Positions 10,994-32,836 of a stretch of DNA of 41,905 nt are shown here, piece after piece. The number at the start of each line of letters is the position of its first letter. Position 1 is the first letter of the stretch. The stretch is taken from contig JAPLTI010000215.1 in assembly GCA_026398285.1 (NCBI GenBank), forward strand, positions 1 to 41,905, given 5' to 3'. The position numbers and the translations under genes are program-made. Below the pieces are notes generated by a model. The model was not told the DNA's origin, ran no database searches, and saw nothing but the letters and a program-made list of their open reading frames with translations. Source of the stretch: Verrucomicrobiota bacterium (GTDB taxonomy: Bacteria > Verrucomicrobiota > Verrucomicrobiia > Chthoniobacterales > Terrimicrobiaceae).

Positions 10994-13900
10994 TTATTGA
11001 ATTTCAAGATTCACAGCGCCATCTTTATGTGAAAGCCGAAGTGAAAGGGTGCGTGTGGTGGGGTTCCAAGTATTTTTCAAGGCTGCAGAATCCGGTGTGA
11101 TCTTCACTTGAGGCTTGGACTTGAGTTGGATTTCCAACTCGGTATCCCGCTCAGGGTATTCGGTATTTGATTGCAGCCAAAAGGATTTGTTTTTGTTTTC
11201 AAATTTGCCGACTAAATAGGCGTGAGGGCCTATTTTTCCGGAAATTTTTTCAAAGCCGCCCCGATTTTTCAGCGGAACATCGTAGGTTTGCGTTTCGTCT
11301 GAGTTTTCACAGGAATTAAGGACGGTGAGTGTGTCAGCCACCTCTGCTACAAATGCATTACCCGAATACCAAGCGGGATATGCTGCATCAAATGTTTGCT
11401 TCACACTGGCCTCTGTTTTAAATCGCGAGAGCGGAAGGACTTCGACTCCAGGGCCGAGATCGCGCTTCCCTTGAGGCAAGACAGGGATGAAATAGAAACG
11501 ACCAGTATTGGGAAAAAACTCCATGAGCGTGCCGGGATGAACGCCGACATCACGGAAACCGTATGTGCCGCGAAAAAGGGCCTCCCACTCGTAGTAGTAT
11601 TGATCTCCAGTCTCATACTTGGAAACTTCGTCGTTAAAAACGGCGATCTTCACATTGCGCAGGACAGCTTGTTTGGTCGGAACAAGATTTTTTTGGAGCA
11701 ATCCACGGATAAATGGAAGGCAAAACCGATCAAAGGTTTCTGTGAGCTCGCCATCCGTTGTCCAGAAGGCGGCGGGATTGCGGTAGGCTGCATCAGTGAT
11801 TTCGGGAAGACCTTTTTCGGCGATGCGCCAGTCTTTGGGCACGGGAGTTGTTCCAACTTGGCCTTCAAAGCTGAAGACCGAGCAGCCGCGTGCCAAGCCC
11901 ATCACATGGTTGAGCGTCCAGAAAATCCGTGGCATGTTAGTCACATCGCCAGCCCTCTGACCGAGAATTTCTCCCAGTTTGCGGAAGCCGACTTGCTGCC
12001 AATACCAGCCCCCGTCCTCCCAGGCTCCCTGGGCCACGATGTCATCATTCAGATATAATCCCAGAACGGAACTTTGGGATACGAATTGTCTGTGAAGGAT
12101 ATTGTTTTTTTGCGCAAGGATGAAGTAGTCTTTGTATTCCCTCATAAACGCGCTGTTTTTTTCAAAAAGAGCCTGATATTTATTTTCTTTCGGATAAGAT
12201 CCATCCGCTTCGTAAAAAACTCGGCCGTATTTTGCGCAGAGTTTCACAAGTCGTTGGATGTATTCTTCTTTTTCGCCACCGTGAAAGTGGGCGGAAAGCG
12301 TTTCGCCGCCAGAGATGCCGATGACATTCGGGTAGGTTTGAAAAACCTCTTCCACCATGGAGAGGGGGGCCCATCGGGACATCGGGGCAGGCGCATGGGT
12401 GCGCAAAAAGGTTTTAACGCCCATGTCTTTCAGTGGGCGCAGGTATCCGATGTGATCGTTGGTTTTGTAAATGCCCGTGTTTATTGCCACATTGGCTTGA
12501 ATATCCGGCGGGATCGTGTTGTGAAAACGGCTCCAGTCTGGAACGCGGCAACCCTCAAAGGTGAAGAGCGGGTTTTCGGGAGTTGGTTTGAAAACGAGAG
12601 GTCTTTTGGGGAGTTCTTTGTTGGAGGTGAAGCGGCGGGTCGTTGACCATTCTCCAGCTCGTCCTTCCTCCAGCGCTCGCACTCGCCAGAACCACTCTCC
12701 CGGAGCGGGAAGTTCGCTTTCCTTTGGCATGTAGTAGGGCATGTCAACCTCCGAGCGCACATTCAAGCTCGTGGGGTTCTCGAATTCTGGCGAGCGGGCC
12801 AACTGGATTTCGTAGTCGATCGCTCCAGGGACCTGAAACCAATGGAAAAAGGTCGCAATATCGGTCATGTTCAGGCCGTCTGCCGGGAGGTTAAGCTCGG
12901 GTGCGACGAACGGAGCACTCTCCAGCACCAGAGACTCCATTTTGGCGAGTTTTCCTTGGAAAATCTCAAGATTGTAAACTCTGCGGCTGTGCAACCATCC
13001 CGTCACTTTCGTGAAATCGATGGTTTCCTCCCCATCCTTTTCGAATGTCGCTACTGTGAACGCCTCTCCTGCGTCCGAGGTTGCCACAATTTTCAGCGGA
13101 TGCTCTGCTGTTGCACCGGAAACCTTCGTCCGAAGCTGAAACGGCCGAGTGAAATCGGTTTCGAGTTGAGCCATCAGCGTTCGGCCATTCGTGACGAATG
13201 CCGATGTGTCCTTTGCGTTCGCGGTGAAGCAGATCGTTTCGCCGGGTTTCACGGGTTTTCCGTTAAGGTAAACTGTGCAGGCATCACCTACTGTCGGAGA
13301 TGCCTGGCTTGTCACCGCTTTGAAAAGGTTTCGCCCTTGGTTCCAAATACCCACCTCTCCGCAAGTCGCCGCAATGGCAAATCCCAGTTCAAGCGGCTTC
13401 TCCTTGCTGAATGCATAAGGCTGATTTTCCTGCACATCGTCAAGCAGGCGGATGAGGTAACCGGTATTGTTGATGACCCAAACTGTGTTCCCGGGAATGA
13501 AACGAACATAGGCATCTTTAAGAGTGGAAAAGGCCAGACCATTTCCCAGTTCGGAATCGACACCAACCCAGCAGCGCTCATTGCGCCAGGAAACGCGCGT
13601 GAAGCCTGTGTTCTTTCCCGAAAGCAAAATCCGTGGGCCTGCTGTGCTGGTCTTGTTCGTATTGGCGACACTAATCCCAGAGGCCGTTTTTTCGCTGCCC
13701 GAGGTTGGAATATCATATAAGAACCGGAGCTTGCCCTGCAGGAGAGGGCCAAAATCACCTTTCAGCCCTGCTCCCATTTCGACATAAGACAAGTATCGCG
13801 TCCGGTCGTCTGTGCAGGTCCAGCGGGTCTTGTAGATCAGCACAGGCTCGGAGGCTTGGAGAGTGAATGTTTCCTCCCAGACCACATTTTCTCCCAATGT

Positions 13901-14596
13901 CGGGAAGCGGTGCGCAAGAACGAGGGTTGCCGAGCCATCCGGGTTGGCCGTTGCGCGGCTCTCTATCAAGGTTGCATTTTCGGTCGAGCGCAGAAGATTC
14001 ATATCGCGAAGTTTGTCGTCCTTGAAGCCGAGCAAACGACCATGTGGTTCCTCCGAAAGCCAGAAATCCAGACGGTTGTTCTGGCATATCTTTGTCTCCG
14101 TATTCCCAGCATACGCGAGGGACCACCTTCCGTCAGCATAAGCCAGAGTCAGGATTCCGTTGCTCAAAGATCCAGAGCCGCTTTGCGCATCAAACGCGGC
14201 CGTGGCGCTTGGTGCTCCCCATGCCTTTGCCTTCCGGATTTTGAATTCCATTCGCTCGCGAGGTTGTAGGGAAACCACCGCATGAAGAATCTCGCCGCCA
14301 TCCGACTTCTGCCGGATCAGTGGGATCGCAGCACCATCCCCTCGGACAAGTTCCAAGGGCACATTCGCCCCGACTCCTGCCGCTTTCGCTGCCGCATCGG
14401 CCGGGAGATTCAGCGTTGTCGCATACACGGGCTTCTCGCTTTGGTTCACCACCGTCACGCTGGCAGATCCTGACTCTCCTCCTCCCGTTACCTGTGGGGT
14501 CTTGGTAACAGCAGCGCTCGTTGCTATCGCCCCGAACAGCGCCAAGACGCTCGCGAACCGCAGAGGCAAGCGCAGTCTTCGAACGGTAGTCGACAT
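10994..14596 (-). CDS. Large secreted protein of unknown family (paralog 2), a putative polysaccharide-active enzyme
   Basis: The ORF is 10994..14644. I prefer the ATG at 14596 (MSTTVRRLRLPLRFASVLALFGAIATSAAV, a signal peptide) over 14644. It is collinear with 6621..10124, sharing FTRVSWRNERCWVGVD, ELPAPGEWFWRVRALEE, LAQKNNILHRQFVSQSSVLGLYL, QGAWEDGGWYWQQVGFRKLGEILGQR and GTLMEFFPNTGRFYFIPVLPQGK. Confidence 0.85.
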   Translation of the reverse strand: MSTTVRRLRLPLRFASVLALFGAIATSAAVTKTPQVTGGGESGSASVTVVNQSEKPVYATTLNLPADAAAKAAGVGANVPLELVRGDGAAIPLIRQKSDGGEILHAVVSLQPRERMEFKIRKAKAWGAPSATAAFDAQSGSGSLSNGILTLAYADGRWSLAYAGNTETKICQNNRLDFWLSEEPHGRLLGFKDDKLRDMNLLRSTENATLIESRATANPDGSATLVLAHRFPTLGENVVWEETFTLQASEPVLIYKTRWTCTDDRTRYLSYVEMGAGLKGDFGPLLQGKLRFLYDIPTSGSEKTASGISVANTNKTSTAGPRILLSGKNTGFTRVSWRNERCWVGVDSELGNGLAFSTLKDAYVRFIPGNTVWVINNTGYLIRLLDDVQENQPYAFSKEKPLELGFAIAATCGEVGIWNQGRNLFKAVTSQASPTVGDACTVYLNGKPVKPGETICFTANAKDTSAFVTNGRTLMAQLETDFTRPFQLRTKVSGATAEHPLKIVATSDAGEAFTVATFEKDGEETIDFTKVTGWLHSRRVYNLEIFQGKLAKMESLVLESAPFVAPELNLPADGLNMTDIATFFHWFQVPGAIDYEIQLARSPEFENPTSLNVRSEVDMPYYMPKESELPAPGEWFWRVRALEEGRAGEWSTTRRFTSNKELPKRPLVFKPTPENPLFTFEGCRVPDWSRFHNTIPPDIQANVAINTGIYKTNDHIGYLRPLKDMGVKTFLRTHAPAPMSRWAPLSMVEEVFQTYPNVIGISGGETLSAHFHGGEKEEYIQRLVKLCAKYGRVFYEADGSYPKENKYQALFEKNSAFMREYKDYFILAQKNNILHRQFVSQSSVLGLYLNDDIVAQGAWEDGGWYWQQVGFRKLGEILGQRAGDVTNMPRIFWTLNHVMGLARGCSVFSFEGQVGTTPVPKDWRIAEKGLPEITDAAYRNPAAFWTTDGELTETFDRFCLPFIRGLLQKNLVPTKQAVLRNVKIAVFNDEVSKYETGDQYYYEWEALFRGTYGFRDVGVHPGTLMEFFPNTGRFYFIPVLPQGKRDLGPGVEVLPLSRFKTEASVKQTFDAAYPAWYSGNAFVAEVADTLTVLNSCENSDETQTYDVPLKNRGGFEKISGKIGPHAYLVGKFENKNKSFWLQSNTEYPERDTELEIQLKSKPQVKITPDSAALKNTWNPTTRTLSLRLSHKDGAVNLEIQ

Positions 14597-14656
14597 AGTA
14601 AAACAACATTGCAGATGAGGGCGGTCGAGGGAGTATGTGAACATAAAAAAATATTA

Positions 14657-14683
14657 GTGTAAGTATTTACTTGTCGGCGTCAA
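14657..14683 (-). promoter_or_regulatory. Promoter-like element, copy a (TTGACG-N15-TTACAC) upstream of the 14596-to-3049 operon
   Basis: The minus strand reads TTGACGccgacaAGTAAATACTTACACtaat. It lies ~60 nt upstream of the ATG at 14596. It shares the spacer core AAGTA..TAC and the TTACAY box with five other sites in the window. Confidence 0.45.
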
Positions 14684-14920: not shown

Positions 14921-14946
14921 TTGCGGATGCGAAAAAGTATTTACAT
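14921..14946 (+). promoter_or_regulatory. Promoter-like element, copy b (TTGCGG-N14-TTACAT), with no annotated gene directly downstream
   Basis: cccTTGCGGatgcgaaAAAGTATTTACATgacg. It is nearly identical over ~32 nt to copy c, which lies 245 bp downstream. Confidence 0.4.
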
Positions 14947-15165: not shown

Positions 15166-15191
15166 TTGCAAATGCCTGAAAGTATTTACAT
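15166..15191 (+). promoter_or_regulatory. Promoter-like element, copy c (TTGCAA-N14-TTACAT) upstream of the LamG-like gene
   Basis: cccTTGCAAatgcctgAAAGTATTTACATatttt, 50 nt upstream of the ATG at 15241. Confidence 0.45.
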
Positions 15192-15240
15192 ATTTTAAAG
15201 GCAGAAAATCAACGTCAACACTTCCTGCTTGCTGCTCGTT

Positions 15241-16083
15241 ATGACCATAATCACTTTAAAAAGTCTCCCTGTGCGCCCCTTCTTTGCCACTCCTACCCGT
15301 TTCTTTTTGCTTCTTGTTGCATTTAGGCTTTGCGGCTTAACTTCCAATGTCAATGCGGCTCCGCAGCCCGCAGCCTGGAATCAATCTGTGGAAAGTGCCT
15401 CGCAAAACCGTCCCGTCTTATGGTTGCAAGGTGAAGGGGATGAAAATCTCGGATCTGAAATTCCGGGGCGATTGAATCTTCGCGGCGCGAAGCTTGTTCC
15501 AGGCGTTGGATACTGGGAGGGCAAAAGTGGGTTTGTAACCGATCCGGCGACTGCTCCAAGTTCCTCGTTGCTGATCGCTTCCTCCGACACTTCTATTGCT
15601 TCCTCTCCGCAGGGCACCGTCGTCCTTCTTTTTCAGACGCCATCGAGCTTTAGAGAACCAGAAGACGACAAACCCGCAAAAATTAACCTGTTCGAGCGCA
15701 GCACAAGAGGTGTGCCGACACACTTCGAAATCGCCATCGTGAAAGGCTTCTTGAGGCTTGTCATTGCCGACGAGGCGGACAAATCCCTGCTAAAACCGAT
15801 CTGCAAACTTGAACCCTCACAGTGGTATTGGCTGGCAGTCCGCTGGAAAAGCGAAGGAGGCTCCACCTCGCTGGATTGGCAGCTTCTTGCGCCTCCCGAT
15901 CCGGAGCATATTGATCAAGGCTCCTTGGTTACAAGTCCCGTTGGTAACGCCTCCGGCATTATAAGCATCGGTGGTTCCTACCAGAAGGAAACCCCTCCAG
16001 TTCCCTTCTCCCAAATCATTGTTTGGGACTCGTTCATCAGCAATGAAGCCTTGGAAAAACTCGTGCGCCTCCTTAAAAAATAA
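15241..16083 (+). CDS. Secreted hypothetical protein, possibly with a LamG/concanavalin-like jelly-roll fold
   Basis: The ORF is 15229..16083 with a TTG start. The ATG at 15241 gives MTIITLKSLPVRPFFATPTRFFLLLVAFRLCGLTSNVNA, a signal peptide. The beta-rich body with ...WYWLAVRWKSEGGSTSLDWQLL... resembles LamG-type lectin folds. The fold call is weak. Confidence 0.6.
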   Translation: MTIITLKSLPVRPFFATPTRFFLLLVAFRLCGLTSNVNAAPQPAAWNQSVESASQNRPVLWLQGEGDENLGSEIPGRLNLRGAKLVPGVGYWEGKSGFVTDPATAPSSSLLIASSDTSIASSPQGTVVLLFQTPSSFREPEDDKPAKINLFERSTRGVPTHFEIAIVKGFLRLVIADEADKSLLKPICKLEPSQWYWLAVRWKSEGGSTSLDWQLLAPPDPEHIDQGSLVTSPVGNASGIISIGGSYQKETPPVPFSQIIVWDSFISNEALEKLVRLLKK

Positions 16084-16275: not shown

Positions 16276-17334
16276 ATGATAGTCTCAGACTCCTCAACCT
16301 TGAAACCCGCCCGATCGCTGAACCACCCGGCCCAACAGCCCACTCTGAAAGACATTGCCAAAGCGACGAATCTCACCGTTGCCAGCGTGTCCCGCATCCT
16401 TGCCGGGAAGGCCAAGTTCTCTGATGAAACCCGAGAGCGTGTCGAGGCCGTCGCCAATGCCCTGGGCTACCGACCCAATCGTCTGGTCTCCGGCATCCAA
16501 ACCGGCCGCACCGGTCTCATTGGCGCCATCCTTCCAATCCATTCTGAATGGGGGGCACAACTCTTCACCAGACTCCAGCAGGAACTCGCTCATCACAGCT
16601 ATGTTCCCATCGCCTTGGACTGCCCGTCTGCGGCCATCAACGAATTGGAGATGATCTACCATCTCCTCGATCGGCGCGTGGAGGGGATTGTTCTCTTTCC
16701 AGGCGACGACACAATTTCCGATGAATATTTCGACGAAATCCACTCGCGCAAAATCCCGCTCGTTGTCGTCGTGCGCCGCCTCACGCGCGCCCACTGCCAT
16801 TTCATAGGCTGCGACGATTTTGAAAGTGGTAAACTCGCCGCCGAACACCTCACCAGCCTCGGACACCGTGTGCTTGGCCATATCGGCGGCCCCTGGAACA
16901 TCAGCACAGGCCGCGAACGCGCCGAGGGCTTCACTCAAACGGCCATGTCCCACCCGGCAGTCTCTGTCGCCCAAGTCGTCATGCCCACCTTCCTGCCCGA
17001 TGAGTCCTTGATCGAACAATTTCTCGATTCGCATCCGCAAATCACAGGCGTTTTTTGTGCCAACGAACCCATTGCCCTGGGACTTTACGCCGTTGCCAAA
17101 AGGCGCAAGCTTGATATCCCGGGGAATCTCAGCATCGTTTCCCACGGCAACGGCCGCGCTGCCTCAATCGTTTCTCCCCCGCTCACTTCCACAGTAGAGA
17201 ACAGCAGCCAAATCGGCCGCGAAGCAGCCGCCCTTCTTCTCGAACTCACCAGCCACAAAAAATCCTCCCAACCCATTATCGAAAAACGGATCCCCGTTGA
17301 ACTCATCGTCCGCGAGTCTACAGCGCGCGTGTGA
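16276..17334 (+). CDS. LacI-family transcriptional regulator
   Basis: 352 aa. The N-terminal HTH is PTLKDIAKATNLTVASVSRILAGKAKFSDETRERVEAVANALGYRPN, followed by a periplasmic-binding-protein-like sugar-binding core. Confidence 0.9.
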   Translation: MIVSDSSTLKPARSLNHPAQQPTLKDIAKATNLTVASVSRILAGKAKFSDETRERVEAVANALGYRPNRLVSGIQTGRTGLIGAILPIHSEWGAQLFTRLQQELAHHSYVPIALDCPSAAINELEMIYHLLDRRVEGIVLFPGDDTISDEYFDEIHSRKIPLVVVVRRLTRAHCHFIGCDDFESGKLAAEHLTSLGHRVLGHIGGPWNISTGRERAEGFTQTAMSHPAVSVAQVVMPTFLPDESLIEQFLDSHPQITGVFCANEPIALGLYAVAKRRKLDIPGNLSIVSHGNGRAASIVSPPLTSTVENSSQIGREAAALLLELTSHKKSSQPIIEKRIPVELIVRESTARV

Positions 17335-17361
17335 CATACATAGAGTTACCGGAAAATGAGC

Positions 17362-17388
17362 TTGCTTCCGAAAAGTAAATACTTACAT
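17362..17388 (+). promoter_or_regulatory. Promoter-like element, copy d (TTGCTT-N15-TTACAT) directly upstream of the pseudopilin cassette
   Basis: cTTGCTTccgaaAAGTAAATACTTACATtttaagttgaccttt-ATG(17404). It ends 15 nt before the preferred start codon, so any leader would be very short and has no obvious SD. Confidence 0.45.
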
Positions 17389-17403
17389 TTTAAGTTGACC
17401 TTT

Positions 17404-17883
17404 ATGAAGCCCCCAAACCTCCCCCATGCTCTTTTAGAAAGACGCTATGGCTTTTCTTTGGTGGAGGTGTGTCTTGCGATAGGGATCGTTTCGTTCAGCT
17501 TGTTGGCCTTATTGGCCTTGGTTCCGAATGGTCTGCAAACCCTTCAAAATGCCGCAATCGAGGCTTCCCTTTCGGCGATCCGAAAGGAAGTGCGTTCGGA
17601 GATGAATACGGCGAATTTTGCGAATCTCTCGGAGAGCCTGCCGCTGCAACTCTGGTATTTTGACCAATCTGGGCGACGCCTGCCAGCATCTGCTCCTGAA
17701 ACGGATCGTTTTTTTCAACTTCGTTTCATGGCATCGGAGCCCGCAATCACGGGACAGGTGGGGGGATTCGAAAGCAGTGCAAAGCGCATGATGTTGAAGG
17801 TTACCTTTCCGGCTTTTGCGCCGCCTTCTTCACAGTCGACAAATATCTTCACCCTGCTTGTGGCCCGACAGTCTTCCCAATAA
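17404..17883 (+). CDS. Prepilin-type N-terminal cleavage/methylation-domain protein (pseudopilin-like 1 of the cassette)
   Basis: The ORF is 17356..17883. The ATG at 17404 gives MKPPNLPHALLERRYG|FSLVEVCLAIGIVSFSLLALLALV. This has the canonical G|FxxxE class III signal with a hydrophobic helix. 159 aa. Confidence 0.8.
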   Translation: MKPPNLPHALLERRYGFSLVEVCLAIGIVSFSLLALLALVPNGLQTLQNAAIEASLSAIRKEVRSEMNTANFANLSESLPLQLWYFDQSGRRLPASAPETDRFFQLRFMASEPAITGQVGGFESSAKRMMLKVTFPAFAPPSSQSTNIFTLLVARQSSQ

Positions 17884-17889
17884 TAAGTT

Positions 17890-18813
17890 ATGGGAAAAAG
17901 TCGTGCCAAACGCTGCTACGGATTTTCGCTGGTTGAAGTTCTCGTGGCGAGTGCAATTCTGGGAGTTCTGGTTATTCTCTTGTCCTCGGCTACCGGTTCA
18001 CTTTTAAACACTTTGCGGAATGCCCATTCCAAGATCGATCAATACTCTGCTGCGCGTGCCGGTTTTGAGCAGATTCTTTCGACACTTTCCCAAGCGACAT
18101 TGAACACTTATTGGGACTACGACAATCCCGCAAATCCAAATAACTATGTCCGCAAATCCGATCTACATCTTTTGATCGCGCCGTCCACAATGGGCCACGC
18201 CGTTTTTTTCCAGGCTCCTCTCTCGAGAAACGGGAATACCACTTCCAGTGGTCTGTTGAACGCTGTGGGATTTTGGGTCGATTTTGGCAGTGATTCCCAA
18301 TGGAAGCCAGGGCATGTGCCGGAGCAATTTCGCTTCCGGTTGATGCAAGGAATTCAACCTGCTGACAGCCTGCAGGTCTTCACGACGACCGATGGATCGT
18401 GGACGAATGCGGTGAAAACCATTCCCGATGTTGGTTTTCCGATCGCGTCAAATGTTCTGGCCCTGATTCTCTGGCCGCGGCTTCCTGTGGTGCAAGATCC
18501 CGAGGGAAATGACTTGAGTGCCAATTTCGCCTACAATTCCCGACAAGGTAGCGCTATTCAAAAAGCACAGCTTCCTCCCTCGGTGCAAGTGACGATGATT
18601 GTGATGGACGAAGCCTCGGCATCCCGCCTGGCATCAGGCTCGGCCGCTCCTACGGCGATCACATCGGCATTCACCAATCGCTTTCAGGATGTCACCCGCT
18701 TTGAGTCCGACTTGGAGGCTGTCCGTGCGGCTCTGACGGCAGCCAAGGTCAATCACCTGGTGCTGTCATCCTCGGTCACTCTGCGCGAGGCAAAATGGAG
18801 CCAGACCCCATGA
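17890..18813 (+). CDS. Prepilin-type N-terminal cleavage/methylation-domain protein (pseudopilin-like 2 of the cassette)
   Basis: 307 aa. MGKSRAKRCYG|FSLVEVLVASAILGVLVILL. It begins 6 nt after the previous stop. Confidence 0.8.
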   Translation: MGKSRAKRCYGFSLVEVLVASAILGVLVILLSSATGSLLNTLRNAHSKIDQYSAARAGFEQILSTLSQATLNTYWDYDNPANPNNYVRKSDLHLLIAPSTMGHAVFFQAPLSRNGNTTSSGLLNAVGFWVDFGSDSQWKPGHVPEQFRFRLMQGIQPADSLQVFTTTDGSWTNAVKTIPDVGFPIASNVLALILWPRLPVVQDPEGNDLSANFAYNSRQGSAIQKAQLPPSVQVTMIVMDEASASRLASGSAAPTAITSAFTNRFQDVTRFESDLEAVRAALTAAKVNHLVLSSSVTLREAKWSQTP

Positions 18814-19364
18814 AAAGACGAGGCTTCTCATTAATTGAATTGCTGGCCGTGGTTGCCGTTCTGGCGATTCTTTTAGTTTTGGTGACACCCGCATTCAATT
18901 CCATCGCCAGTTCCAGCAACATCACGCAAGCCGCTAACATGCTCTCGGGGCAAATCGAACTGGCGCGCCAACTCGCCGAGGTGCGCAACCGCTCGATCGA
19001 GGTGCGAATTTTGAAAAAAAACGGCGACTCCCACTTCTCAGCCCTCCAACTCTGGTGGCCCAGCCTCGGCCAACCCGCAGAAAAGCCGGTTGTTTTCCCT
19101 CAGGGCATGCTACTCAACGAGTCACTCTCCCCTTGGTTGAGCAAGATGGGTAGCGGAACCATGGCTGCCGGTGGATCGTGGGCAGGCGCTACCTATCGGT
19201 CATTTACCATCCGCCCTTCCGGCGAACTCGATCCCCGACCCTCTGCCGGGGATCGCGCCCAGGTTTTCCTCACCATTTCCGCCCGCGAGGAGCCCACACC
19301 CTCAAACTACACCACCATCCAAGTCAACCCCGACACCTCACGCCCCATTCTTTATCGACCATGA
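18810..19364 (+). CDS. Prepilin-type N-terminal cleavage/methylation-domain protein (pseudopilin-like 3 of the cassette)
   Basis: The ORF is 18795..19364. The ATG at 18810 makes an ATGA overlap with the previous stop and gives MKRRG|FSLIELLAVVAVLAILLVLVTPAF. The fold looks GspH/FimT-like. Confidence 0.8.
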   Translation: MKRRGFSLIELLAVVAVLAILLVLVTPAFNSIASSSNITQAANMLSGQIELARQLAEVRNRSIEVRILKKNGDSHFSALQLWWPSLGQPAEKPVVFPQGMLLNESLSPWLSKMGSGTMAAGGSWAGATYRSFTIRPSGELDPRPSAGDRAQVFLTISAREEPTPSNYTTIQVNPDTSRPILYRP

Positions 19365-22300
19365 TGTCCTCCCGCTTCCACAACCGTGGCGCCGCCCTTG
19401 TCATTGTCCTGGGAATGCTGGTGCTTGTTTCCATCGTCGCCATCGGATTTTTCGCACGCACGGTCACGCTGAGAAAATCCACCGCCAACGAGTTGGCTTC
19501 GAGTTCTGCCCGCTCACTGGCTGATACGGCAGTTAATTTGGTGCAAGCCCAGATCGACCACGCCACCACCGCCGGAAATTTTACTTCTTGGGCCTCCCAG
19601 CCGGGTGCGATCCGCCTTTACAACACCTCGGGCACGCTCCGCACGGTCTATCGCCTCTACTCGTCCTCCTCGCTCACCACATCCACTGCCACCGACCTCG
19701 CAGCAGACCTCCCGTCCAGTCCAGACTGGAGGAACTCGAAGTCGCTTTGGGTGGATTTGAACGCCCCAGTCGATATTTCCTCAAATGCAACCCTCACCCG
19801 GCGCTTCCCGATTCTCGATCCATCGTCCATGGGAGCGATCGAGGGGTTTAACAGCAATGGGACTACCTCGATCACCGTTCTCACCAGCAACCAGACCAGC
19901 CGCTCACTGCCGATGCCCGTCCGCTGGATGTATGTCTTGCAGAATGGCGAAATCGTGGCCCCCGCCGCGGCATCGGGCGGAACCGACAGCGTTACTGTCG
20001 CGGGAGCCAGCGCTGCCAATCCGATTGTAGGCCGCATCGCCTTCTGGGCCGATGACAATACCAGCCGCTTGAATATCAACACCGCCGGCGGGCGAGGGAA
20101 TGCGATCTCATCCAACGCCACCTTCTGGGATACCCCGCGCTTCGAAGCGCCCGACGAACGCAACCTCGCCAAATACCAACCAGCCAGCGGCGAATTCCAA
20201 CGCTATCCCGGACATCCCGGCACGACCACACTCGGCAAAGTCTTCCCGTCGCTCACCAGCAATCAAGTCCTGCAGCTCACCCCCCGCTACACCTACGGAG
20301 GCTCCCGCGACGCCACGGTGGCGAATACAGCAAACAACACCTCCAAAGCCGACCGTCTTCTCTCCTCGGCAGGTGAACTCCTTTACACTCCTGACCGATC
20401 GGCGACACCCCTCCTCTCCGCAGACCAACTCGAAGGCGTGAAATTCCTCCTCACCTCACACAGTCGCTCGCCGGAACTCACCCTCTTTGGCACGCCCCGC
20501 ATCAGTGTTTGGCCGATCCACGCGAACGCGGCATCTGCCTGGCGCTCTCCCAAAGACCTGTTGCTGGCCCGCGCAGCCACAGTCAATGGCAATCAAACCT
20601 ACCACTTCACCCGCTCCGATTCACAGAGCTGCACCACCGATATCAACCTGCCGCGAAATCTCAGCCTTTTGAATTATCTCGATCACCTCACGCAGCAAAA
20701 CATCCCGGGCTGGGGCGCGAGTTTTACCACCAAATACCCAGCCGACCGCCGCGATATCCTCACCAAAATTTTTGACTATGTGCGCATCACCAATCTGCAA
20801 GACCCCCTTCTTGCTCCAGCCAACCGATATTCATCCAATAGCTCCACAAGCGCTGGGATCGTGGCGCCTGCAATCCACCCGACTTGGAACACTCGGGGAT
20901 TTGGGAGATTTGAGGTCCTCGCTGATGCCGGCTTCCTCCTGGTCGGTGTGGGGCAGGGGAATCTTACTGTTAACGCCACAACCACGAACGCCACGGTCTT
21001 AACCTCCCAAGCAGGCACTCTCTACGACTCGGGAAATTCTACATCTTGGGCTAACGCCGCGAGCCGCCTCCCGGCAGATGGTAAAGTGGCGGTTCAAGGA
21101 TTGTTTCTCATGAGTTTCTTCAATCCAGCCATGGGATATGCGGAAACAAAATCCGGATTCAGCCTGCGCATCCAAGGCCTTAACTCGGCAACACTCGATG
21201 GTGTCGCCATGGATTTCCCGGCAGACGATTGGATTTATTGTGATCCGGCCCAAAATGGAACAGTCAACCAGCCTCCCGGAACCCGTGGATTTGGGGCAGT
21301 CATCGATTCGCGAAAACTCATCTTCTATCTGCAAGGAGGTCCCAAAGCCCGCTCTTTAGGGTTTGGTGACCTTGGGCGCCGAACCACATACCCGTTTTTC
21401 AGTAGAAACATTATTCCGGTTTCCGCAAACGCCCCATCGGTATCGTTCACGGCAGGAAATGTGACACTGGCGTTGTTCAGTGGAAATGGAGCCCAAAATT
21501 CGGAGCCGCAAAAATGGATTTCCACCTACACCTTGGATTTCAGTCAACTTCCAGGAACGATTCCGACTCCGAAGCTTGCCCGCAACAGAGGATTCGGATT
21601 GACGGCTTCCAATGCTGCGGAGGGAGGCTATCAAAGGGATCGTTTTCATCTCGCTTCGAACATGCTTGGGAGTTCCACCACAAGTCCCCAGACAAGTTTT
21701 TATGCCGGTGGATACACCTATGTCTGTGGATTGGTTGAACCGGACCGGGATGTGTTTTACACATTGGCTCCGAGTGGAAACTTCACAGACTATCGATTGT
21801 TGAATCGTGCCCAGGTTCCTGCAGCAGCTTTTAACCCCCACCCCAATGCGAATGGGATAAATCGCTCAGCCTTTTTAGGTATGATGGGGGCAGGGTTTCA
21901 AATGGCTGGAAGCGGACCCTACGGAAAGCTCTCTCAAAGCGCCTCTTATTACGAGCCGTCAATCATTTCGAATGCCAGTGGAAATCTCACCCTCGGCAAT
22001 CTCACCCCCAATCCGGCCCAGCCTGCGGTGCCATCCGGTTTGAACGGAGCCTTCTCGGCCAACAATTCCAGTGTCCCTGGCGACTGGGACAATGGCATGG
22101 GCATCGTGATGGACGGCCCTTACATCAACAAACCGGATGACGGAAACCAAAAAAACATCAGCACTGGCATTCCCTTCTTTGATTCGGATTTTTACTACGC
22201 TGAGATTCTTGGAGGCGGTCTATTCTCGCCCAACCGCATGATCCCTTCCGCCGGGATGTTTGGTTCGCTACCGACCGGAGTTCTTTCAGCCCAACCGTGG

Positions 22301-23083
22301 CAGACGCTTCTCTTCCGGCCCGGGCCGCTTGGCCACAAGGGGCTGGAGTCGCCTCGCGACCACCTGCTACTCGATCTCTTTTGGATGCCCGTGGTCGAGC
22401 CATATGCCATCAGTGAACCGTTTTCCACCGCTGGGAAGGTCAATATGAATTACCAAATTCAGCCCTTCACCTACATCGACCGCAAGACCCCGCTTCTGTC
22501 CGTTTTGGATTCCGAACGAATCGCCAAGGTGAGAAGAGGTGATGCCGATAAATACAAAAAATTGGATATTGGCATCGGCTCCAATGCACGCCTCCCCCTG
22601 AACCTGAGTGAAACCGACGGCACGCTGCGACAATTCCGGGAGAGATTCGCAGCGAATGAGATTTTCAAATCCCCGACGGAAATTTGCGATGTGTTTCTCG
22701 TTCCACAAGGCTCGAGCTGGTCCACGGATGCAGCCGCCCGCACAGCCTGGTATGGCGATGATTTCGGTTTGGTCGGCGACAACACGCGCGAGCGCCCCTA
22801 CGCAAACCTCCTTGGCCGTGTCACCACGAAATCGAATACCTTCACCGTCTACTACACAGTGCAGGCTCTCAAAAATCCGGCCAGCCTGCCGCAGGATATA
22901 TGGAACGAGTCGAAGGGCGTCGTAATGAGCGAATACCGTGGAAACACGACACTCGAGCGATACATCAACCCCAACGACACGCGCATTCCAGACTATGCGG
23001 CCGTCCCAAGCAAAATCGCCACAGATCCGCTGGATAAATACTACAACTGGCGAATCATCGAACAAACACAGTTTGCCCCGTAA
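19361..23083 (+). CDS. Giant (~1,240 aa) PilX_N/GspK-like N-terminal-helix protein, the fourth gene of the cassette (recalled TIGRFAMs name 'Verru_Chthon cassette protein A'; not verified)
   Basis: The ORF is 19178..23083. The ATG at 19361 makes an ATGA overlap with the previous stop and gives MMSSRFHNRGAALVIVLGMLVLVSIVAIGFFARTV. This is the RG-x-ALV-x-VL hydrophobic N-terminus seen in PilX/GspK minor (pseudo)pilins. The remainder is a long Ser/Thr/Asn-rich body with no motifs I recognise. Confidence 0.85.
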   Translation: MMSSRFHNRGAALVIVLGMLVLVSIVAIGFFARTVTLRKSTANELASSSARSLADTAVNLVQAQIDHATTAGNFTSWASQPGAIRLYNTSGTLRTVYRLYSSSSLTTSTATDLAADLPSSPDWRNSKSLWVDLNAPVDISSNATLTRRFPILDPSSMGAIEGFNSNGTTSITVLTSNQTSRSLPMPVRWMYVLQNGEIVAPAAASGGTDSVTVAGASAANPIVGRIAFWADDNTSRLNINTAGGRGNAISSNATFWDTPRFEAPDERNLAKYQPASGEFQRYPGHPGTTTLGKVFPSLTSNQVLQLTPRYTYGGSRDATVANTANNTSKADRLLSSAGELLYTPDRSATPLLSADQLEGVKFLLTSHSRSPELTLFGTPRISVWPIHANAASAWRSPKDLLLARAATVNGNQTYHFTRSDSQSCTTDINLPRNLSLLNYLDHLTQQNIPGWGASFTTKYPADRRDILTKIFDYVRITNLQDPLLAPANRYSSNSSTSAGIVAPAIHPTWNTRGFGRFEVLADAGFLLVGVGQGNLTVNATTTNATVLTSQAGTLYDSGNSTSWANAASRLPADGKVAVQGLFLMSFFNPAMGYAETKSGFSLRIQGLNSATLDGVAMDFPADDWIYCDPAQNGTVNQPPGTRGFGAVIDSRKLIFYLQGGPKARSLGFGDLGRRTTYPFFSRNIIPVSANAPSVSFTAGNVTLALFSGNGAQNSEPQKWISTYTLDFSQLPGTIPTPKLARNRGFGLTASNAAEGGYQRDRFHLASNMLGSSTTSPQTSFYAGGYTYVCGLVEPDRDVFYTLAPSGNFTDYRLLNRAQVPAAAFNPHPNANGINRSAFLGMMGAGFQMAGSGPYGKLSQSASYYEPSIISNASGNLTLGNLTPNPAQPAVPSGLNGAFSANNSSVPGDWDNGMGIVMDGPYINKPDDGNQKNISTGIPFFDSDFYYAEILGGGLFSPNRMIPSAGMFGSLPTGVLSAQPWQTLLFRPGPLGHKGLESPRDHLLLDLFWMPVVEPYAISEPFSTAGKVNMNYQIQPFTYIDRKTPLLSVLDSERIAKVRRGDADKYKKLDIGIGSNARLPLNLSETDGTLRQFRERFAANEIFKSPTEICDVFLVPQGSSWSTDAAARTAWYGDDFGLVGDNTRERPYANLLGRVTTKSNTFTVYYTVQALKNPASLPQDIWNESKGVVMSEYRGNTTLERYINPNDTRIPDYAAVPSKIATDPLDKYYNWRIIEQTQFAP

Positions 23084-29921: not shown

Positions 29922-29941
29922 AATTGTGAAAATACTTACAT
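29914..29941 (+). promoter_or_regulatory. Promoter-like element, copy e (TTGACC-N16-TTACAT) in the divergent region upstream of the GH29 gene
   Basis: agaTTGACCataattgtgaAAATACTTACATtctt. The -35-like box overlaps the start codon (29921) of the divergent minus-strand gene. Read on the minus strand, the same near-palindromic core gives GTAAGTATTTTCACAAT immediately before that ATG. Confidence 0.4.
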
Positions 29942-32809: not shown

Positions 32810-32836
32810 TTGACTCCTAAAAGTAAGTAATTACAC
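32810..32836 (+). promoter_or_regulatory. Promoter-like element, copy f (TTGACT-N15-TTACAC) upstream of the PEP-CTERM repeat giant
   Basis: tttTTGACTcctaaAAGTAAGTAATTACACtaagg, 24 nt upstream of the ATG at 32860. Confidence 0.45.

What the first reader, a model, noticed from the sequence alone, without database searches (positions are those of the whole stretch)
17362..23083. Orphan four-gene pseudopilus-like cassette (three 'GFSL(V/I)E' pseudopilins plus a ~1,240-aa PilX/GspK-like giant) under a LacI regulator inside a glycan-degradation locus
Seen in the sequence: three consecutive genes begin with canonical class III (prepilin) signals, YG|FSLVEV, YG|FSLVEV and RG|FSLIEL. A fourth, giant gene begins with an RGAALVIVLGMLVLV helix typical of PilX_N/GspK-type tip or minor (pseudo)pilins. 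The genes are tightly coupled (a 6-nt gap, then two ATGA stop/start overlaps) and are preceded by a promoter-like element ending 15 nt from the first ATG. The window contains no major pilin, ATPase, platform protein, secretin or prepilin peptidase. From memory, this architecture matches the TIGRFAMs set named 'Verru_Chthon cassette proteins A-D'. That set is described only as a multi-copy cassette of Verrucomicrobia with no assigned function. Inference: the three small proteins plus the giant would form a GspH/I/J/K-like priming or tip complex whose cap is enlarged about four-fold. Its position, next to a LacI sugar regulator and a LamG-like secreted protein and between two CAZyme/sulfatase operons, suggests a substrate-specific, sugar-induced surface or periplasmic filament tip. 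It could act in polysaccharide capture or dedicated enzyme secretion, functionally replacing the SusC/D-type module that is absent here. That role is undescribed.
Basis: partly seen in the sequence, partly recalled or inferred. Interest (0 to 1): 0.8.

Follow-up and report, generated by a model that had tools for sequence, protein, structure and literature searches.

The report
Sugar-regulated orphan minor-pilin cassette, Verrucomicrobia
This is one copy of a known but functionally uncharacterised Verrucomicrobia gene cassette: four proteins that look like the cap of a pilus-like filament, one of them a giant with no known fold, placed under a sugar-sensing regulator inside a fucose/sulfated-glycan degradation locus, which suggests an untested way of capturing polysaccharides or exporting the enzymes that degrade them.

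Summary
Four tightly coupled + strand genes (17404-23083) encode three prepilin-type proteins and a 1,240-aa giant. They are the NCBIfam "Verru_Chthon cassette" proteins B, C, D and A; A, B and D pass the curated cut-offs, C falls just below.

New evidence maps them one-to-one onto the four core minor (pseudo)pilin classes:
- D matches GspH/FimU and B matches GspI/PilV, both by sequence.
- C matches GspJ/XcpW by predicted fold (Foldseek probability 1.0).
- A matches GspK only over its first ~80 residues. It lacks Glu5, as GspK does.

The rest of A gives a confident model (pLDDT 89, pTM 0.92) with no significant PDB match. Its N- and C-terminal modules are conserved and its middle is hypervariable.

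In 80 related genome loci the cassette never has a major pilin or assembly ATPase nearby. It usually sits among CAZymes, sugar transporters and LacI-family regulators. In the window, a 14-bp LacI-operator-like palindrome precedes the cassette and the flanking CAZyme operons, and it is conserved in a 75%-identical relative.

Best reading: a sugar-induced, exchangeable filament tip or priming complex serving glycan acquisition. The family is known and its function is untested. Interest is moderate.

The parts
16276..17334 (+). LacI-family transcription regulator. It is on the same strand as the cassette and directly upstream of it.
   Evidence: Pfam LacI HTH, Peripla_BP_1, Peripla_BP_3 and Peripla_BP_4. 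Its stop codon lies 21 nt before ATG 17356. A LacI gene occupies the same position in the syntenic relative L085.
17374..17387 (.). 14-bp near-palindrome (TGTAAGTATTTACT on the - strand) between the LacI stop and the start of B. It is a candidate operator overlapping the cassette promoter.
Evidence: One mismatch to TGTAAGTATTTACA. The window has 14 strand-matches against 0.72 expected. An equivalent site lies 21 nt upstream of the B ATG in L085.
17404..17883 (+). Cassette protein B, a GspI/PilV-class minor pilin-like protein of 159 aa. The ORF opens at 17356.
   Evidence: TIGR02598, 60.6 bits, above the cut-off. It has a G|FSLVE class III signal with invariant Glu5. Secondary family hits are PilV, XpsI and GspI.
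17890..18813 (+). Cassette protein C, a GspJ/XcpW-class minor pilin-like protein of 307 aa.
   Evidence: TIGR02599, E 7e-63, full length but below the cut-off. The AF2 model has pLDDT 89.9. The best Foldseek PDB hits are XcpW in the XcpVWX complex and the XcpGHIJK model, E 6e-5 to 9e-4, probability 1.0.
18810..19364 (+). Cassette protein D, a GspH/FimU-class minor pilin-like protein of 184 aa.
   Evidence: TIGR02596, 78.6 bits, above the cut-off. It hits the GspH N-terminus at 40 bits. GspH and ComGD are hit by 42 of 45 family members. The family profile hits type IV pilin helices at E 1e-11 and FimU 4ipu at E 0.011.
19361..23083 (+). Cassette protein A, a 1,240-aa giant with a GspK-like N-terminal helix lacking Glu5. 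It is the proposed tip subunit.
   Evidence: TIGR02600, 854.6 bits. The GspK model is hit at residues 9-85 here and by 26 of 38 relatives. The AF2 model has pLDDT 89 and pTM 0.92. There is no PDB or BFVD match with E<0.001.
20801..22240 (+). Hypervariable, beta-rich middle of A (residues ~481-960). It is the candidate ligand-specific module.
   Evidence: This region has the highest column entropy, the lowest occupancy and most of the insertion hot-spots. Six paralogues in one genome share 36% identity here, against 52% in the N module and 56% in the C module.
22079..22147 (+). Invariant acidic loop motif GDWDNG...DGPYINKPD(D/E)GN in A. A calcium-binding role is possible but is speculation.
   Evidence: D, N and G columns are invariant across 108 relatives. 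Position.
14658..14671 (.). Same palindrome, 14 nt from the start of the GH98-like gene, which starts at 14644 on the - strand.
   Evidence: An equivalent site is present in L085 at 3238.
14932..14945 (.). Weaker copy of the palindrome (3 mismatches to the 14-mer, exact for the 10-mer core AAGTATTTAC) in the divergent region between the GH98-like gene and the 284-aa gene.
15177..15190 (.). Same palindrome upstream of the 284-aa gene (15229, +).
   Evidence: An equivalent site is present in L085 at 3402.
29927..29940 (.). Same palindrome in the divergent region between the GH43-like gene (-) and the alpha-L-fucosidase/MFS genes (+).
   Evidence: Gene identities.
32822..32835 (.). Related palindrome (2 mismatches) 25 nt upstream of the PATR/PEP-CTERM surface-protein gene.

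Best explanation
The operon encodes a complete, self-contained set of the four 'core' minor (pseudo)pilins of a type IV filament system.

After cleavage by a prepilin peptidase encoded elsewhere, they would assemble in the inner membrane into a priming and tip complex:
- A (K-class, no Glu5) would sit on top.
- C (J-class) and B (I-class) would sit beneath it.
- D (H-class) would couple the complex to a major (pseudo)pilin and an assembly machine that the cell supplies in trans.

The genome family carries many such cassettes, so they would act as exchangeable tips for one shared machine. The working end would be the ~1,170-residue ectodomain of A: a conserved scaffold carrying a hypervariable beta-rich module.

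In this locus the cassette would be switched on together with the neighbouring fucosidase, GH98-like, esterase and transporter genes. The switch would be the LacI-family regulator encoded immediately upstream, acting through a shared 14-bp palindrome.

The tip would serve acquisition of the target glycan, most likely by binding the polysaccharide at the end of an extended, retractable filament.

Shown by tools: gene content, class assignment of the four proteins, orphan status, association with carbohydrate genes, the shared cis-element, and the variable-middle architecture.

Inferred: complex formation, filament extension, regulation by this particular LacI protein, and glycan binding.
For: Class mapping of the four proteins:
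- D to GspH, ComGD and XpsH in 34-42 of 45 members, plus a weak FimU hit in the PDB.
- B to PilV, XpsI and GspI.
- C to XcpW/GspJ by fold, probability 1.0.
- A to GspK at the N-terminus in 26 of 38 members.
- Glu5 is invariant in B, C and D but absent from A. From established knowledge of the GspK-I-J structure, this is the pattern expected for a tip-most subunit.

The genes are translationally coupled.

Family-wide orphan status: there is no further prepilin gene and no GspE-type Walker A motif within +/-10 kb in 80 loci, about 1.5 Mb in total. One complete genome contributes at least 6 copies to the top 80 loci.

Carbohydrate context:
- Immediate neighbours include LacI, GH2, GH3, GH31, GH36, GH38, GH52, GH106, fucosidase, sulfatase, CBM4_9, CBM9 and MFS/SSF sugar transporters.
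- Same-strand genes directly after A include GH106, GH5, GH2, LamG+CBM9 and a heparinase-like protein.
- 10 of 30 flanking LacI-like genes lie within 600 bp of the cassette, where 8.5% would be expected (P~1e-4).

Shared palindrome TGTAAGTATTTACA: six intergenic sites, counted as 14 strand-matches against 0.72 expected. It is conserved at equivalent positions in a relative whose A protein is 75% identical. It is essentially absent from the other 80 loci.

The middle of A is hypervariable between species and between paralogues of one genome.

Precedents:
- Four minor pilins plus PilY1 prime and tip type IVa pili (PMC7541494).
- Myxococcus xanthus has multiple minor pilin/PilY1 sets (PMC8833165).
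- Akkermansiaceae are reported to use a type IV-like pilus locus for attachment to fucose-rich glycans (PMC13174399).
- A PulG-like pseudopilin lies in the alginate-induced gene cluster of a Verrucomicrobiota isolate, and a pseudopilin outside those clusters was over-expressed on alginate (PMC13274419).
Against: - No machinery (ATPase, platform, secretin, peptidase, major pilin) could be located for this organism. Only 42 kb is available.
- All matches of B, D and A to the GspI, GspH and GspK models are below the curated cut-offs and confined to the N-terminal helix region.
- The A model has no significant similarity to GspK (3ci0_K ranked 13th, E 0.95) or to any adhesin or carbohydrate-binding fold.
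- No carbohydrate-binding Pfam domain is detected in A.
- The palindrome could be a lineage-specific promoter element rather than the operator of this LacI protein. It lacks the central CG that, to my knowledge, is usual in LacI-family operators.
- Only 10 of 79 loci have a LacI-like gene within 600 bp and about 15 within ~2 kb, so LacI linkage is recurrent but not universal.
- The neighbour census has no formal genome-wide background.
- No paper reports any experiment on this family.
Confidence: 0.55

Rival explanations
1. The cassette forms the tip of a periplasmic T2SS pseudopilus and selects cargo. It would recruit the enzymes encoded in the same locus and push them through the secretin, and would not itself bind glycan.
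For: - The best matches of all four proteins include the T2SS minor pseudopilins GspH, GspI, GspJ and GspK.
- The flanking genes encode large, probably exported enzymes: GH98-like proteins, sulfatase and esterases.
- In other genomes CAZyme genes follow A on the same strand.
- PMC13274419 proposes T2SS export of alginate lyases in a Verrucomicrobiota isolate that has 67 PulG-like paralogues.
- From my own knowledge, the Xcp tip complex has been reported to contact T2SS substrates.
Against: - A cap of about 130 kDa is some four times the size of GspK. By inference it fits a secretin vestibule less readily than a surface-exposed tip of PilY1 size would.
- There are no gsp core genes near any of the 80 cassettes.
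- The secondary hits are equally to type IV pilus and competence minor pilins such as PilV, ComGD, ComGE and FimU.
- The tools cannot distinguish the two filament types.
Confidence: 0.2
2. The four proteins form a static stub anchored in the inner membrane and never extend as a filament. A would act as a periplasmic or envelope-spanning receptor or scaffold for glycan fragments or enzymes.
For: - No major pilin or ATPase is linked to the cassette in any locus.
- Verrucomicrobiota are reported to accumulate partly degraded glycans in the periplasm (PMC13174399).
- A has a very large, well-folded ectodomain with a strongly conserved C-terminal module that could be a docking surface.
Against: - Retention of all four minor-pilin classes with invariant Glu5 in B, C and D is what an assembling filament requires. 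A static anchor would need only one transmembrane helix.
- From established knowledge, minor-pilin sets are normally encoded apart from the machine they serve in many type IV pilus systems.
Confidence: 0.1
3. The cassette serves a role unrelated to glycans, such as general adhesion, motility, aggregation or DNA uptake. Its position among CAZyme genes would only reflect how dense such genes are in these genomes.
For: - Many neighbours are unrelated to sugars: LepA, Kdo transferase, serpin, DHFR and ankyrin proteins.
- No background rate was computed for CAZyme genes.
- A has no recognisable carbohydrate-binding domain.
Against: - LacI-like genes are concentrated at the cassette edge (P~1e-4).
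- CAZyme genes follow A on the same strand in several genomes.
- The cassette shares a cis-element with the CAZyme operons here and in a diverged relative.
- The whole locus, cassette included, is syntenic at 75% protein identity.
Confidence: 0.1

Closest known systems
NCBIfam/TIGRFAMs 'Verru_Chthon cassette' proteins A (TIGR02600), B (TIGR02598), C (TIGR02599) and D (TIGR02596)
   Same: All four window proteins have these models as by far their best hits, matched end to end. They form a contiguous four-gene cassette, occur in multiple copies per genome, and are found only in Verrucomicrobiota in this survey.
   Different: C scores 213 bits, below its curated cut-off of 256.5. The gene order here is B-C-D-A, one of at least four orders seen. 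The family has a name but no assigned function, and no paper in the library mentions it.
T2SS minor pseudopilin tip complex GspH-GspI-GspJ-GspK (XcpU/V/W/X; PDB 3ci0, 5vtm, 6utu, 9a1f)
   Same: There is one protein of each class. Three carry the G|F..E5 signal and the K-class protein lacks Glu5. The C model matches the XcpW fold. D, B and A hit the GspH, GspI and GspK models at their N-termini.
   Different: No protein reaches the equivalog cut-offs. A is about four times the size of GspK and has no significant fold match to it. The cassette is never next to gsp core genes. It occurs in many copies per genome. It is linked to sugar regulators and CAZymes.
Type IVa pilus minor pilins (FimU/PilV/PilW/PilX) plus PilY1 priming and tip complex, including the multiple alternative sets in Myxococcus xanthus (PMC7541494, PMC8833165)
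   Same: Four minor pilins plus a large tip protein of over 1,000 aa are encoded as a unit away from the core machine. Several alternative sets exist per genome. The proposed role is priming assembly and adhesion at the tip.
   Different: Here the large protein is itself a pilin-like subunit, a functional fusion of the PilX-class and PilY1-like roles. No PilY1/PilC domain was detected by Pfam. Copy numbers are higher. The context is catabolic loci rather than motility genes.
Akkermansiaceae MUL2 type IV-like pilus locus for attachment to fucose-rich glycans (PMC13174399, citing Davey et al. 2023)
   Same: It is from the same phylum, has a type IV-like filament component tied to acquisition of mucin or fucoidan-type glycans, and has no SusC/D.
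   Different: The genes differ: MUL2 comprises amuc_1099-1102, a PilM protein and an archaeal-type pilin. [quoted passage not shown] MUL2 is not a four-minor-pilin cassette.
PulG-like pseudopilins embedded in polysaccharide loci of Opitutales (Verruconatronum alginivorum, PMC13274419)
   Same: Prepilin-type genes are embedded in a polysaccharide-degradation cluster of a Verrucomicrobiota isolate, with massive paralogy (67 copies) and a pseudopilin over-expressed on alginate.
   Different: Those are single PulG-like (major-pseudopilin-like) genes. They are not an H/I/J/K-type set with a giant K-class protein.

Membership tests
Verru_Chthon cassette (NCBIfam TIGR02596/02598/02599/02600) | Protein A scores above the TIGR02600 cut-off (332.3 bits) | tested here: met
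   854.6 bits, E 1.6e-256, residues 10-1240 against model positions 1-1296.
Verru_Chthon cassette (NCBIfam TIGR02596/02598/02599/02600) | Protein B scores above the TIGR02598 cut-off (51.4 bits) | tested here: met
   60.2 to 60.6 bits.
Verru_Chthon cassette (NCBIfam TIGR02596/02598/02599/02600) | Protein C scores above the TIGR02599 cut-off (256.5 bits) | tested here: not met
   213 bits, E 7.3e-63, with the full length of the model matched. JGI labels close homologues as 'TIGR02599 family'. This is a short, divergent member rather than a different family.
Verru_Chthon cassette (NCBIfam TIGR02596/02598/02599/02600) | Protein D scores above the TIGR02596 cut-off (70 bits) | tested here: met
   78.6 bits.
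Verru_Chthon cassette (NCBIfam TIGR02596/02598/02599/02600) | The four genes are contiguous in one cassette | tested here: met
   6-nt gap followed by two ATGA overlaps. The same four families are adjacent in the related loci, in the orders BCDA, BCAD, DBCA and ABCD.
Verru_Chthon cassette (NCBIfam TIGR02596/02598/02599/02600) | Multiple copies per genome, in Verrucomicrobiota | tested here: inconclusive
   This holds in related genomes: at least 6 copies from CP170506.1 appear among the top 80 loci, several per MAG, and all record titles name Verrucomicrobiota lineages apart from one labelled only 'uncultured bacterium'. The source genome of the window is not available beyond 42 kb.
T2SS minor pseudopilins GspH/I/J/K | Class III signal (G|F-x-x-x-E5) in the H, I and J subunits; the K subunit lacks Glu5 | tested here: met
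   Motifs. F+1 and E+5 are invariant in the B and C alignments, and E+5 is invariant with F+1 nearly so in D. A has G|AALVI with no Glu5, and the family consensus is G-x-A-L-V-I.
T2SS minor pseudopilins GspH/I/J/K | Scores above the NCBIfam equivalog cut-offs for GspH, GspI, GspJ and GspK | tested here: not met
   GspH 40.2 bits (cut-off 80); GspK 27.4 (cut-off 130); C hits gspI at only 16.7 bits (cut-off 44.35) and D hits gspJ at only 16.3 bits (cut-off 64.85); the window's B does not hit gspI and C does not hit gspJ. All matches cover only the N-terminal ~30-80 residues.
T2SS minor pseudopilins GspH/I/J/K | GspJ-type fold for the J-class subunit | tested here: met
   The C model (pLDDT 89.9) matches 9a1f_S, 6utu_E, 5vtm_W and 3nje_B with E 6e-5 to 2e-3, probability 1.0 and target TM-score 0.47-0.57.
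T2SS minor pseudopilins GspH/I/J/K | GspK-type fold (pilin domain with inserted alpha-domain) for the K-class subunit | tested here: not met
   For the A model (pTM 0.92), 3ci0_K is only rank 13 with E 0.95 and probability 0.15. The family profile has no hit among PDB sequences at E<=10.
T2SS minor pseudopilins GspH/I/J/K | Encoded within a gsp operon, next to GspC-G and L-M | tested here: not met
   No such genes are in the window. There is no GspE-type Walker A motif and no extra prepilin gene within +/-10 kb in 80 loci.
T2SS minor pseudopilins GspH/I/J/K | The subunits form a K-I-J (plus H) quaternary tip complex | not testable with these tools
   Only single-chain prediction was available. 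This needs AlphaFold-Multimer or biochemistry.
T4aP minor pilins plus PilY1 | A separate non-pilin PilY1/PilC adhesin with a C-terminal beta-propeller | tested here: not met
   No PilY1/PilC Pfam domain is found in A or in its neighbours. A carries its own pilin-type N-terminal helix.
SusC/SusD-type polysaccharide utilisation locus | A TonB-dependent SusC-like transporter and a SusD-like lipoprotein are present | tested here: not met
   No such Pfam hits were found in any scanned ORF of 200 aa or more in the window. An MFS_2 sugar transporter is present instead.

The most novel reading that the evidence does not exclude
Verru_Chthon cassettes would be the substrate-recognition modules of a polysaccharide-utilisation system specific to Verrucomicrobia. 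Dozens of sugar-induced, interchangeable pilus tips per genome would each carry a giant pilin of a new fold whose hypervariable middle binds one class of glycan. All would be mounted on one shared retractable type IV filament machine that reels the polymer in for periplasmic ('selfish') degradation. This would be a functional counterpart of SusC/D built from entirely different parts.
Probability: 0.25. Interest if true: 0.85.

Novelty: new member of a known kind. Interest (0 to 1): 0.55.

Why it matters
How Verrucomicrobiota and their relatives capture and import complex polysaccharides without SusC/D is an open question. These bacteria are major degraders of fucoidan, mucin and other sulfated or fucose-rich glycans in oceans, soils and guts.

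This cassette family is large: 3,751 clusters at 50% identity have E<=0.001. It has been named for about two decades, yet no paper in the searched library mentions it.

This analysis turns a nameless cassette into a concrete hypothesis that can be tested in cultured strains. It rests on four findings:
- The four proteins make up a complete H/I/J/K-type minor-pilin set.
- The K-class member has a confidently predicted but unmatched fold with a hypervariable module.
- The cassettes sit beside LacI-type regulators and CAZymes.
- In the window, the cassette shares a cis-element with the CAZyme operons.

Tried and rejected
- Foldseek of the confident A model against the PDB and BFVD gave no hit with E<0.001. 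The top hits were generic beta-sandwiches (TEAD, GH2, PAD2), so no domain could be named.
- The A family profile searched against PDB sequences gave nothing at E<=10.
- The B and C family profiles searched against PDB sequences matched only weakly, with the pilin-type matches confined to the N-terminal helix and the rest apparently chance hits. The class of B therefore rests only on sub-threshold NCBIfam hits.
- Pfam found nothing in A for PilX_N, T2SSK or any carbohydrate-binding module, apart from one of 38 members hitting PilX_N at E 0.017.
- Literature searches for 'Verru_Chthon', 'Chthon cassette' and 'TIGR02600' returned no papers. A search for Chthoniobacter with pili or T2SS also returned none.
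- The sigma-70 promoter and terminator scan found no promoter in front of B, and total counts were at chance level.
- I tried reading the palindrome as part of a -35/-10 pair. The spacings are inconsistent between sites, so operator versus promoter element is left open.
- I considered that the cassette might be a mobile or phage-derived element. No integrase or transposase appeared among the families listed for immediate neighbours (only the 25 commonest per census are shown), there were no viral fold matches, and synteny with the CAZyme locus is stable. Rejected.
- The 'LamG-like' identity of the 284-aa upstream protein was checked, and there is no Pfam hit at E<=1.
- The assembly machine of the source organism, or of the complete MAG CP170506.1, could not be located.

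Full report
**Observation**

The region holds four consecutive + strand ORFs.
- B: the ORF opens at 17356, but the likely start is ATG 17404. It ends at 17883.
- C: 17890-18813.
- D: 18810-19364.
- A: 19361-23083, 1,240 aa.

The junctions are a 6-nt gap followed by two ATGA stop/start overlaps. B, C and D carry YG|FSLVEV, YG|FSLVEV and RG|FSLIEL. These are the only prepilin-type motifs in any frame of the window, and no GspE/PilB-type Walker A motif is present.

A begins HNRG|AALVIVLGMLVLV, a pilin-like hydrophobic helix without Glu5.

A LacI-family gene (16276-17334) lies on the same strand and ends 21 nt before ATG 17356.

**Identity**

- A: Verru_Chthon cassette protein A, TIGR02600, 854.6 bits against a cut-off of 332.
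- B: TIGR02598, 60.2 against 51.4.
- D: TIGR02596, 78.6 against 70.
- C: TIGR02599, 213 against 256.5. This is below the cut-off, but the match is full length with E 7e-63.

Pfam sees only the N_methyl motif, and nothing in A. No paper in the library contains 'Verru_Chthon', 'Chthon cassette' or 'TIGR02600'. The family is named but functionally blank.

**What the four proteins are**

I tested the GspH/I/J/K analogy protein by protein.

D: 42 of 45 family members taken from related loci also hit GspH and ComGD, and 34 hit XpsH. The family profile hits type IV pilin helices in the PDB at E down to 1e-11. It also hits the H-class minor pilin FimU (4ipu) at E 0.011.

B: all 57 members hit TIGR02598. 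Their next-best hits are PilV (16 members), XpsI (15) and GspI (9).

C: the AlphaFold2 model built from 112 homologues has pLDDT 89.9 and pTM 0.82. Its top PDB matches are all XcpW, the GspJ of Pseudomonas. They include the XcpGHIJK filament model and the XcpVWX ternary complex (E 6e-5 to 9e-4, probability 1.0). The Thermus type IV-like pilin TTHA1219 follows.

A: the first ~80 residues hit the T2SS_GspK model here (27 bits) and in 26 of 38 diverse relatives. Glu5 is invariant in B, C and D but absent in A, where the family consensus is G-x-A-L-V-I. From established knowledge of the GspK-GspI-GspJ structure, the K subunit is the tip-most one and the only one lacking Glu5.

The cassette is therefore a complete one-of-each set of the four core minor (pseudo)pilins. 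All these matches to Gsp and Pil models are below the curated cut-offs and confined to the N-terminal region. The proteins work like such a set, but they are not members of those equivalog families.

**The giant**

Residues 41-1240 of A, modelled with 108 homologues, give a confident model: mean pLDDT 89, pTM 0.92, and 838 residues at pLDDT 90 or above.

Foldseek finds nothing with E<0.001 in the PDB. GspK (3ci0_K) is only rank 13 at E 0.95. Nothing is found in BFVD either, and the family profile finds no PDB sequence at E<=10. The fold therefore has no solved counterpart.

Conservation along the protein is strongly uneven.
- The N module (to about residue 480) and the C module (from about 960) are conserved. 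The stretch around MPVVEPYAISEPFSTAGKVNMNYQ is nearly invariant.
- The beta-rich middle (about 481-960) has the highest entropy, the lowest occupancy and most of the insertion hot-spots.

Six paralogues from one complete genome share 52% identity in the N module, 36% in the middle and 56% in the C module. This conserved-scaffold, variable-module pattern is what one expects of a specificity-determining tip protein.

An invariant acidic loop, GDWDNG...DGPYINKPD(D/E)GN (residues 907-929), might bind calcium. That is speculation.

**Family-wide context**

The A family is large.
- At least 1,095 proteins were found in the word-indexed search.
- 3,751 clusters at 50% identity have E<=0.001 in the exhaustive search.
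- At least 594 stretches were found in one-genome-per-species contigs. The 80 best carry titles naming Verrucomicrobiota lineages (Chthoniobacterales, Terrimicrobiaceae, Verrucomicrobiales, Methylacidiphilales), apart from one labelled only 'uncultured bacterium' (L069). One complete MAG contributes at least six copies.

In those 80 loci:
- The four families are adjacent in varying order: BCDA, BCAD, DBCA or ABCD.
- No additional prepilin-motif gene and no GspE-type Walker A motif occurs within +/-10 kb, about 1.5 Mb in total. Orphan status is a property of the whole family, not of this window.

Pfam censuses of the nearest flanking genes (65 upstream, 70 downstream) are headed by:
- LacI-family regulators (9 genes);
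- GH2, GH3, GH31, GH36, GH38, GH52, GH106, alpha-L-fucosidase, sulfatase, CBM4_9 and CBM9;
- MFS/SSF sugar transporters, D-lyxose isomerase, and AraC and GntR regulators;
- PATR surface proteins.

Same-strand genes immediately after A include GH106, GH5, GH2, LamG+CBM9, a heparinase II/III-like protein and PATR/PEP-CTERM proteins.

Of 30 LacI-like genes in the flanks, 10 lie within 600 bp of the cassette, where 8.5% would be expected (P about 1e-4). The adjacent LacI proteins are mutually divergent, consistent with different effectors.

There are caveats. I had no genome-wide background for CAZyme density. Only 10 of 79 loci have a LacI-like gene within 600 bp of the cassette, and about 15 within ~2 kb.

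**The locus in the window**

The cassette lies between two groups of genes.
- One side: two giant GH98-like genes, a GDSL esterase, a BD-FAE esterase and a sulfatase.
- Other side: a GDSL esterase, a SASA acetylesterase, an FAD oxidoreductase, a GH43-like gene, alpha-L-fucosidase and an MFS_2 transporter.

No SusC/D-like gene was detected.

A relative whose A protein is 75% identical keeps the whole arrangement. Its order is GH98-like, 277-aa gene, PATR, LacI, B-C-D-A, GDSL, SASA, and so on to the fucosidase.

It occurs at six intergenic sites:
- 14658, beside the GH98-like start;
- 14932 and 15177, upstream of the 284-aa gene;
- 17374, between LacI and B;
- 29927, between the divergent GH43-like and fucosidase genes;
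- 32822, upstream of the PATR gene.

That is 14 strand-matches against 0.72 expected. The motif recurs at equivalent positions in the relative, with 7 core matches against 0.30 expected, including one 21 nt upstream of the B ATG. It is essentially absent from the other 80 loci, with 2 in-ORF hits in 1.5 Mb, so it is not a general Verrucomicrobial promoter element.

From my own knowledge, it resembles LacI/GalR-family operators such as the ideal cre site TGTAAGCGCTTACA, although it lacks the central CG. The simplest reading is a shared regulatory input for the cassette and the CAZyme operons. Assigning it to this LacI protein is an inference.

**Mechanism**

The best-supported model is a sugar-induced, exchangeable priming and tip complex.

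Prepilin peptidase would process B, C and D, and probably A. A would cap a stack of C and B, with D linking to a major (pseudo)pilin. One machine encoded elsewhere would then extend the filament.

Published precedents:
- Four minor pilins plus PilY1 prime and tip type IVa pili (PMC7541494).
- Myxococcus xanthus keeps several alternative minor pilin/PilY1 sets (PMC8833165).
- Within Verrucomicrobiota, Akkermansiaceae are reported to use a type IV-like pilus locus for attachment to fucose-rich glycans (PMC13174399).
- A PulG-like pseudopilin lies in the alginate-induced cluster of Verruconatronum. It has 67 paralogues in that genome, and a pseudopilin outside the two clusters was over-expressed on alginate (PMC13274419).

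I favour glycan capture by a surface filament, because a ~130-kDa cap is PilY1-sized and has a hypervariable module. A T2SS pseudopilus tip that selects the locus's enzymes for export is a serious rival, and these tools cannot separate the two. A static membrane-anchored complex, or a role unrelated to glycans, is less likely.

**Novelty and verdict**

This is a new member of a known, named family, not a new kind of element. No paper in the searched library describes any of the following:
- the one-to-one H/I/J/K mapping;
- the unmatched fold and variable-middle architecture of A;
- the family-wide linkage to LacI regulators and CAZymes;
- the cis-element shared with the CAZyme operons.

Together they give a testable handle on how Verrucomicrobiota without SusC/D acquire polysaccharides. 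Function remains entirely inferred, and the interest is moderate.

Noticed in passing
window 14658-14671, 14932-14945, 15177-15190, 17374-17387, 29927-29940, 32822-32835; L085 3238, 3402, 7923, 8009, 21644, 23227: A 14-bp near-palindrome, TGTAAGTATTTACA, marks the promoter regions of the cassette and of the flanking CAZyme and surface-protein genes. It is conserved in a relative whose A protein is 75% identical and is absent from other Verrucomicrobia loci. It is a candidate regulon operator; whether it is an operator or a promoter element is unresolved.
   Followed up: partly
window 32860-33798 and 33648-37637 (+): A 312-aa ORF with a signal-peptide-like start overlaps, in another frame, a 1,329-aa ORF with 10 PATR repeats and a C-terminal PEP-CTERM-like end (VPEPETW...RRRRK). 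This is probably one surface-protein gene split by a frameshift or an assembly error. A PATR/PEP-CTERM gene sits between the 277-aa gene and LacI in the relative L085.
   Followed up: no
window 6621-10124 and 10994-14644 (-): Two giant paralogous GH98-like proteins (1,167 and 1,216 aa, with only partial GH98 M and C domain matches; the first also has DUF4962) are separated by a GDSL-like gene. Their Pfam matches are weak, so they may be a divergent endo-glycanase family.
   Followed up: no
window 38151-39500 (-): A protein combining Schlafen/AlbA_2, HATPase_c_4 and a Fic-like C-terminal domain lies just outside the glycan locus. It is unrelated to the finding.
   Followed up: no
L053 8134-19100; L066; L039: Cassettes occur in tandem or close pairs in some genomes: B-C-A-B-C-A in L053, B-C-A-A in L066, and two cassettes, each with its own LacI-like gene, within 15 kb in L039. 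This points to expansion by local duplication.
   Followed up: partly
window 22079-22147 (A residues 907-929): An invariant acidic loop, GDWDNG...DGPYINKPD(D/E)GN, is reminiscent of calcium-binding loops. Both GspK and PilY1 are known calcium binders (from my own knowledge). Not tested.
   Followed up: no
P0241 (3,115 aa): One representative protein matches the A profile in 8 separate stretches and is 3,115 aa long. It could be a fused or tandem A protein, or a mis-assembly.
   Followed up: no
window 15229-16083 (+); L085 3475-4308: A conserved 277-284-aa protein with a hydrophobic N-terminus and no Pfam match even at E<=1 lies upstream of the LacI gene in the window and, with a PATR gene in between, in the relative. 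It is preceded by two copies of the palindrome. It was not detected next to the cassettes in the other 80 loci.
   Followed up: partly
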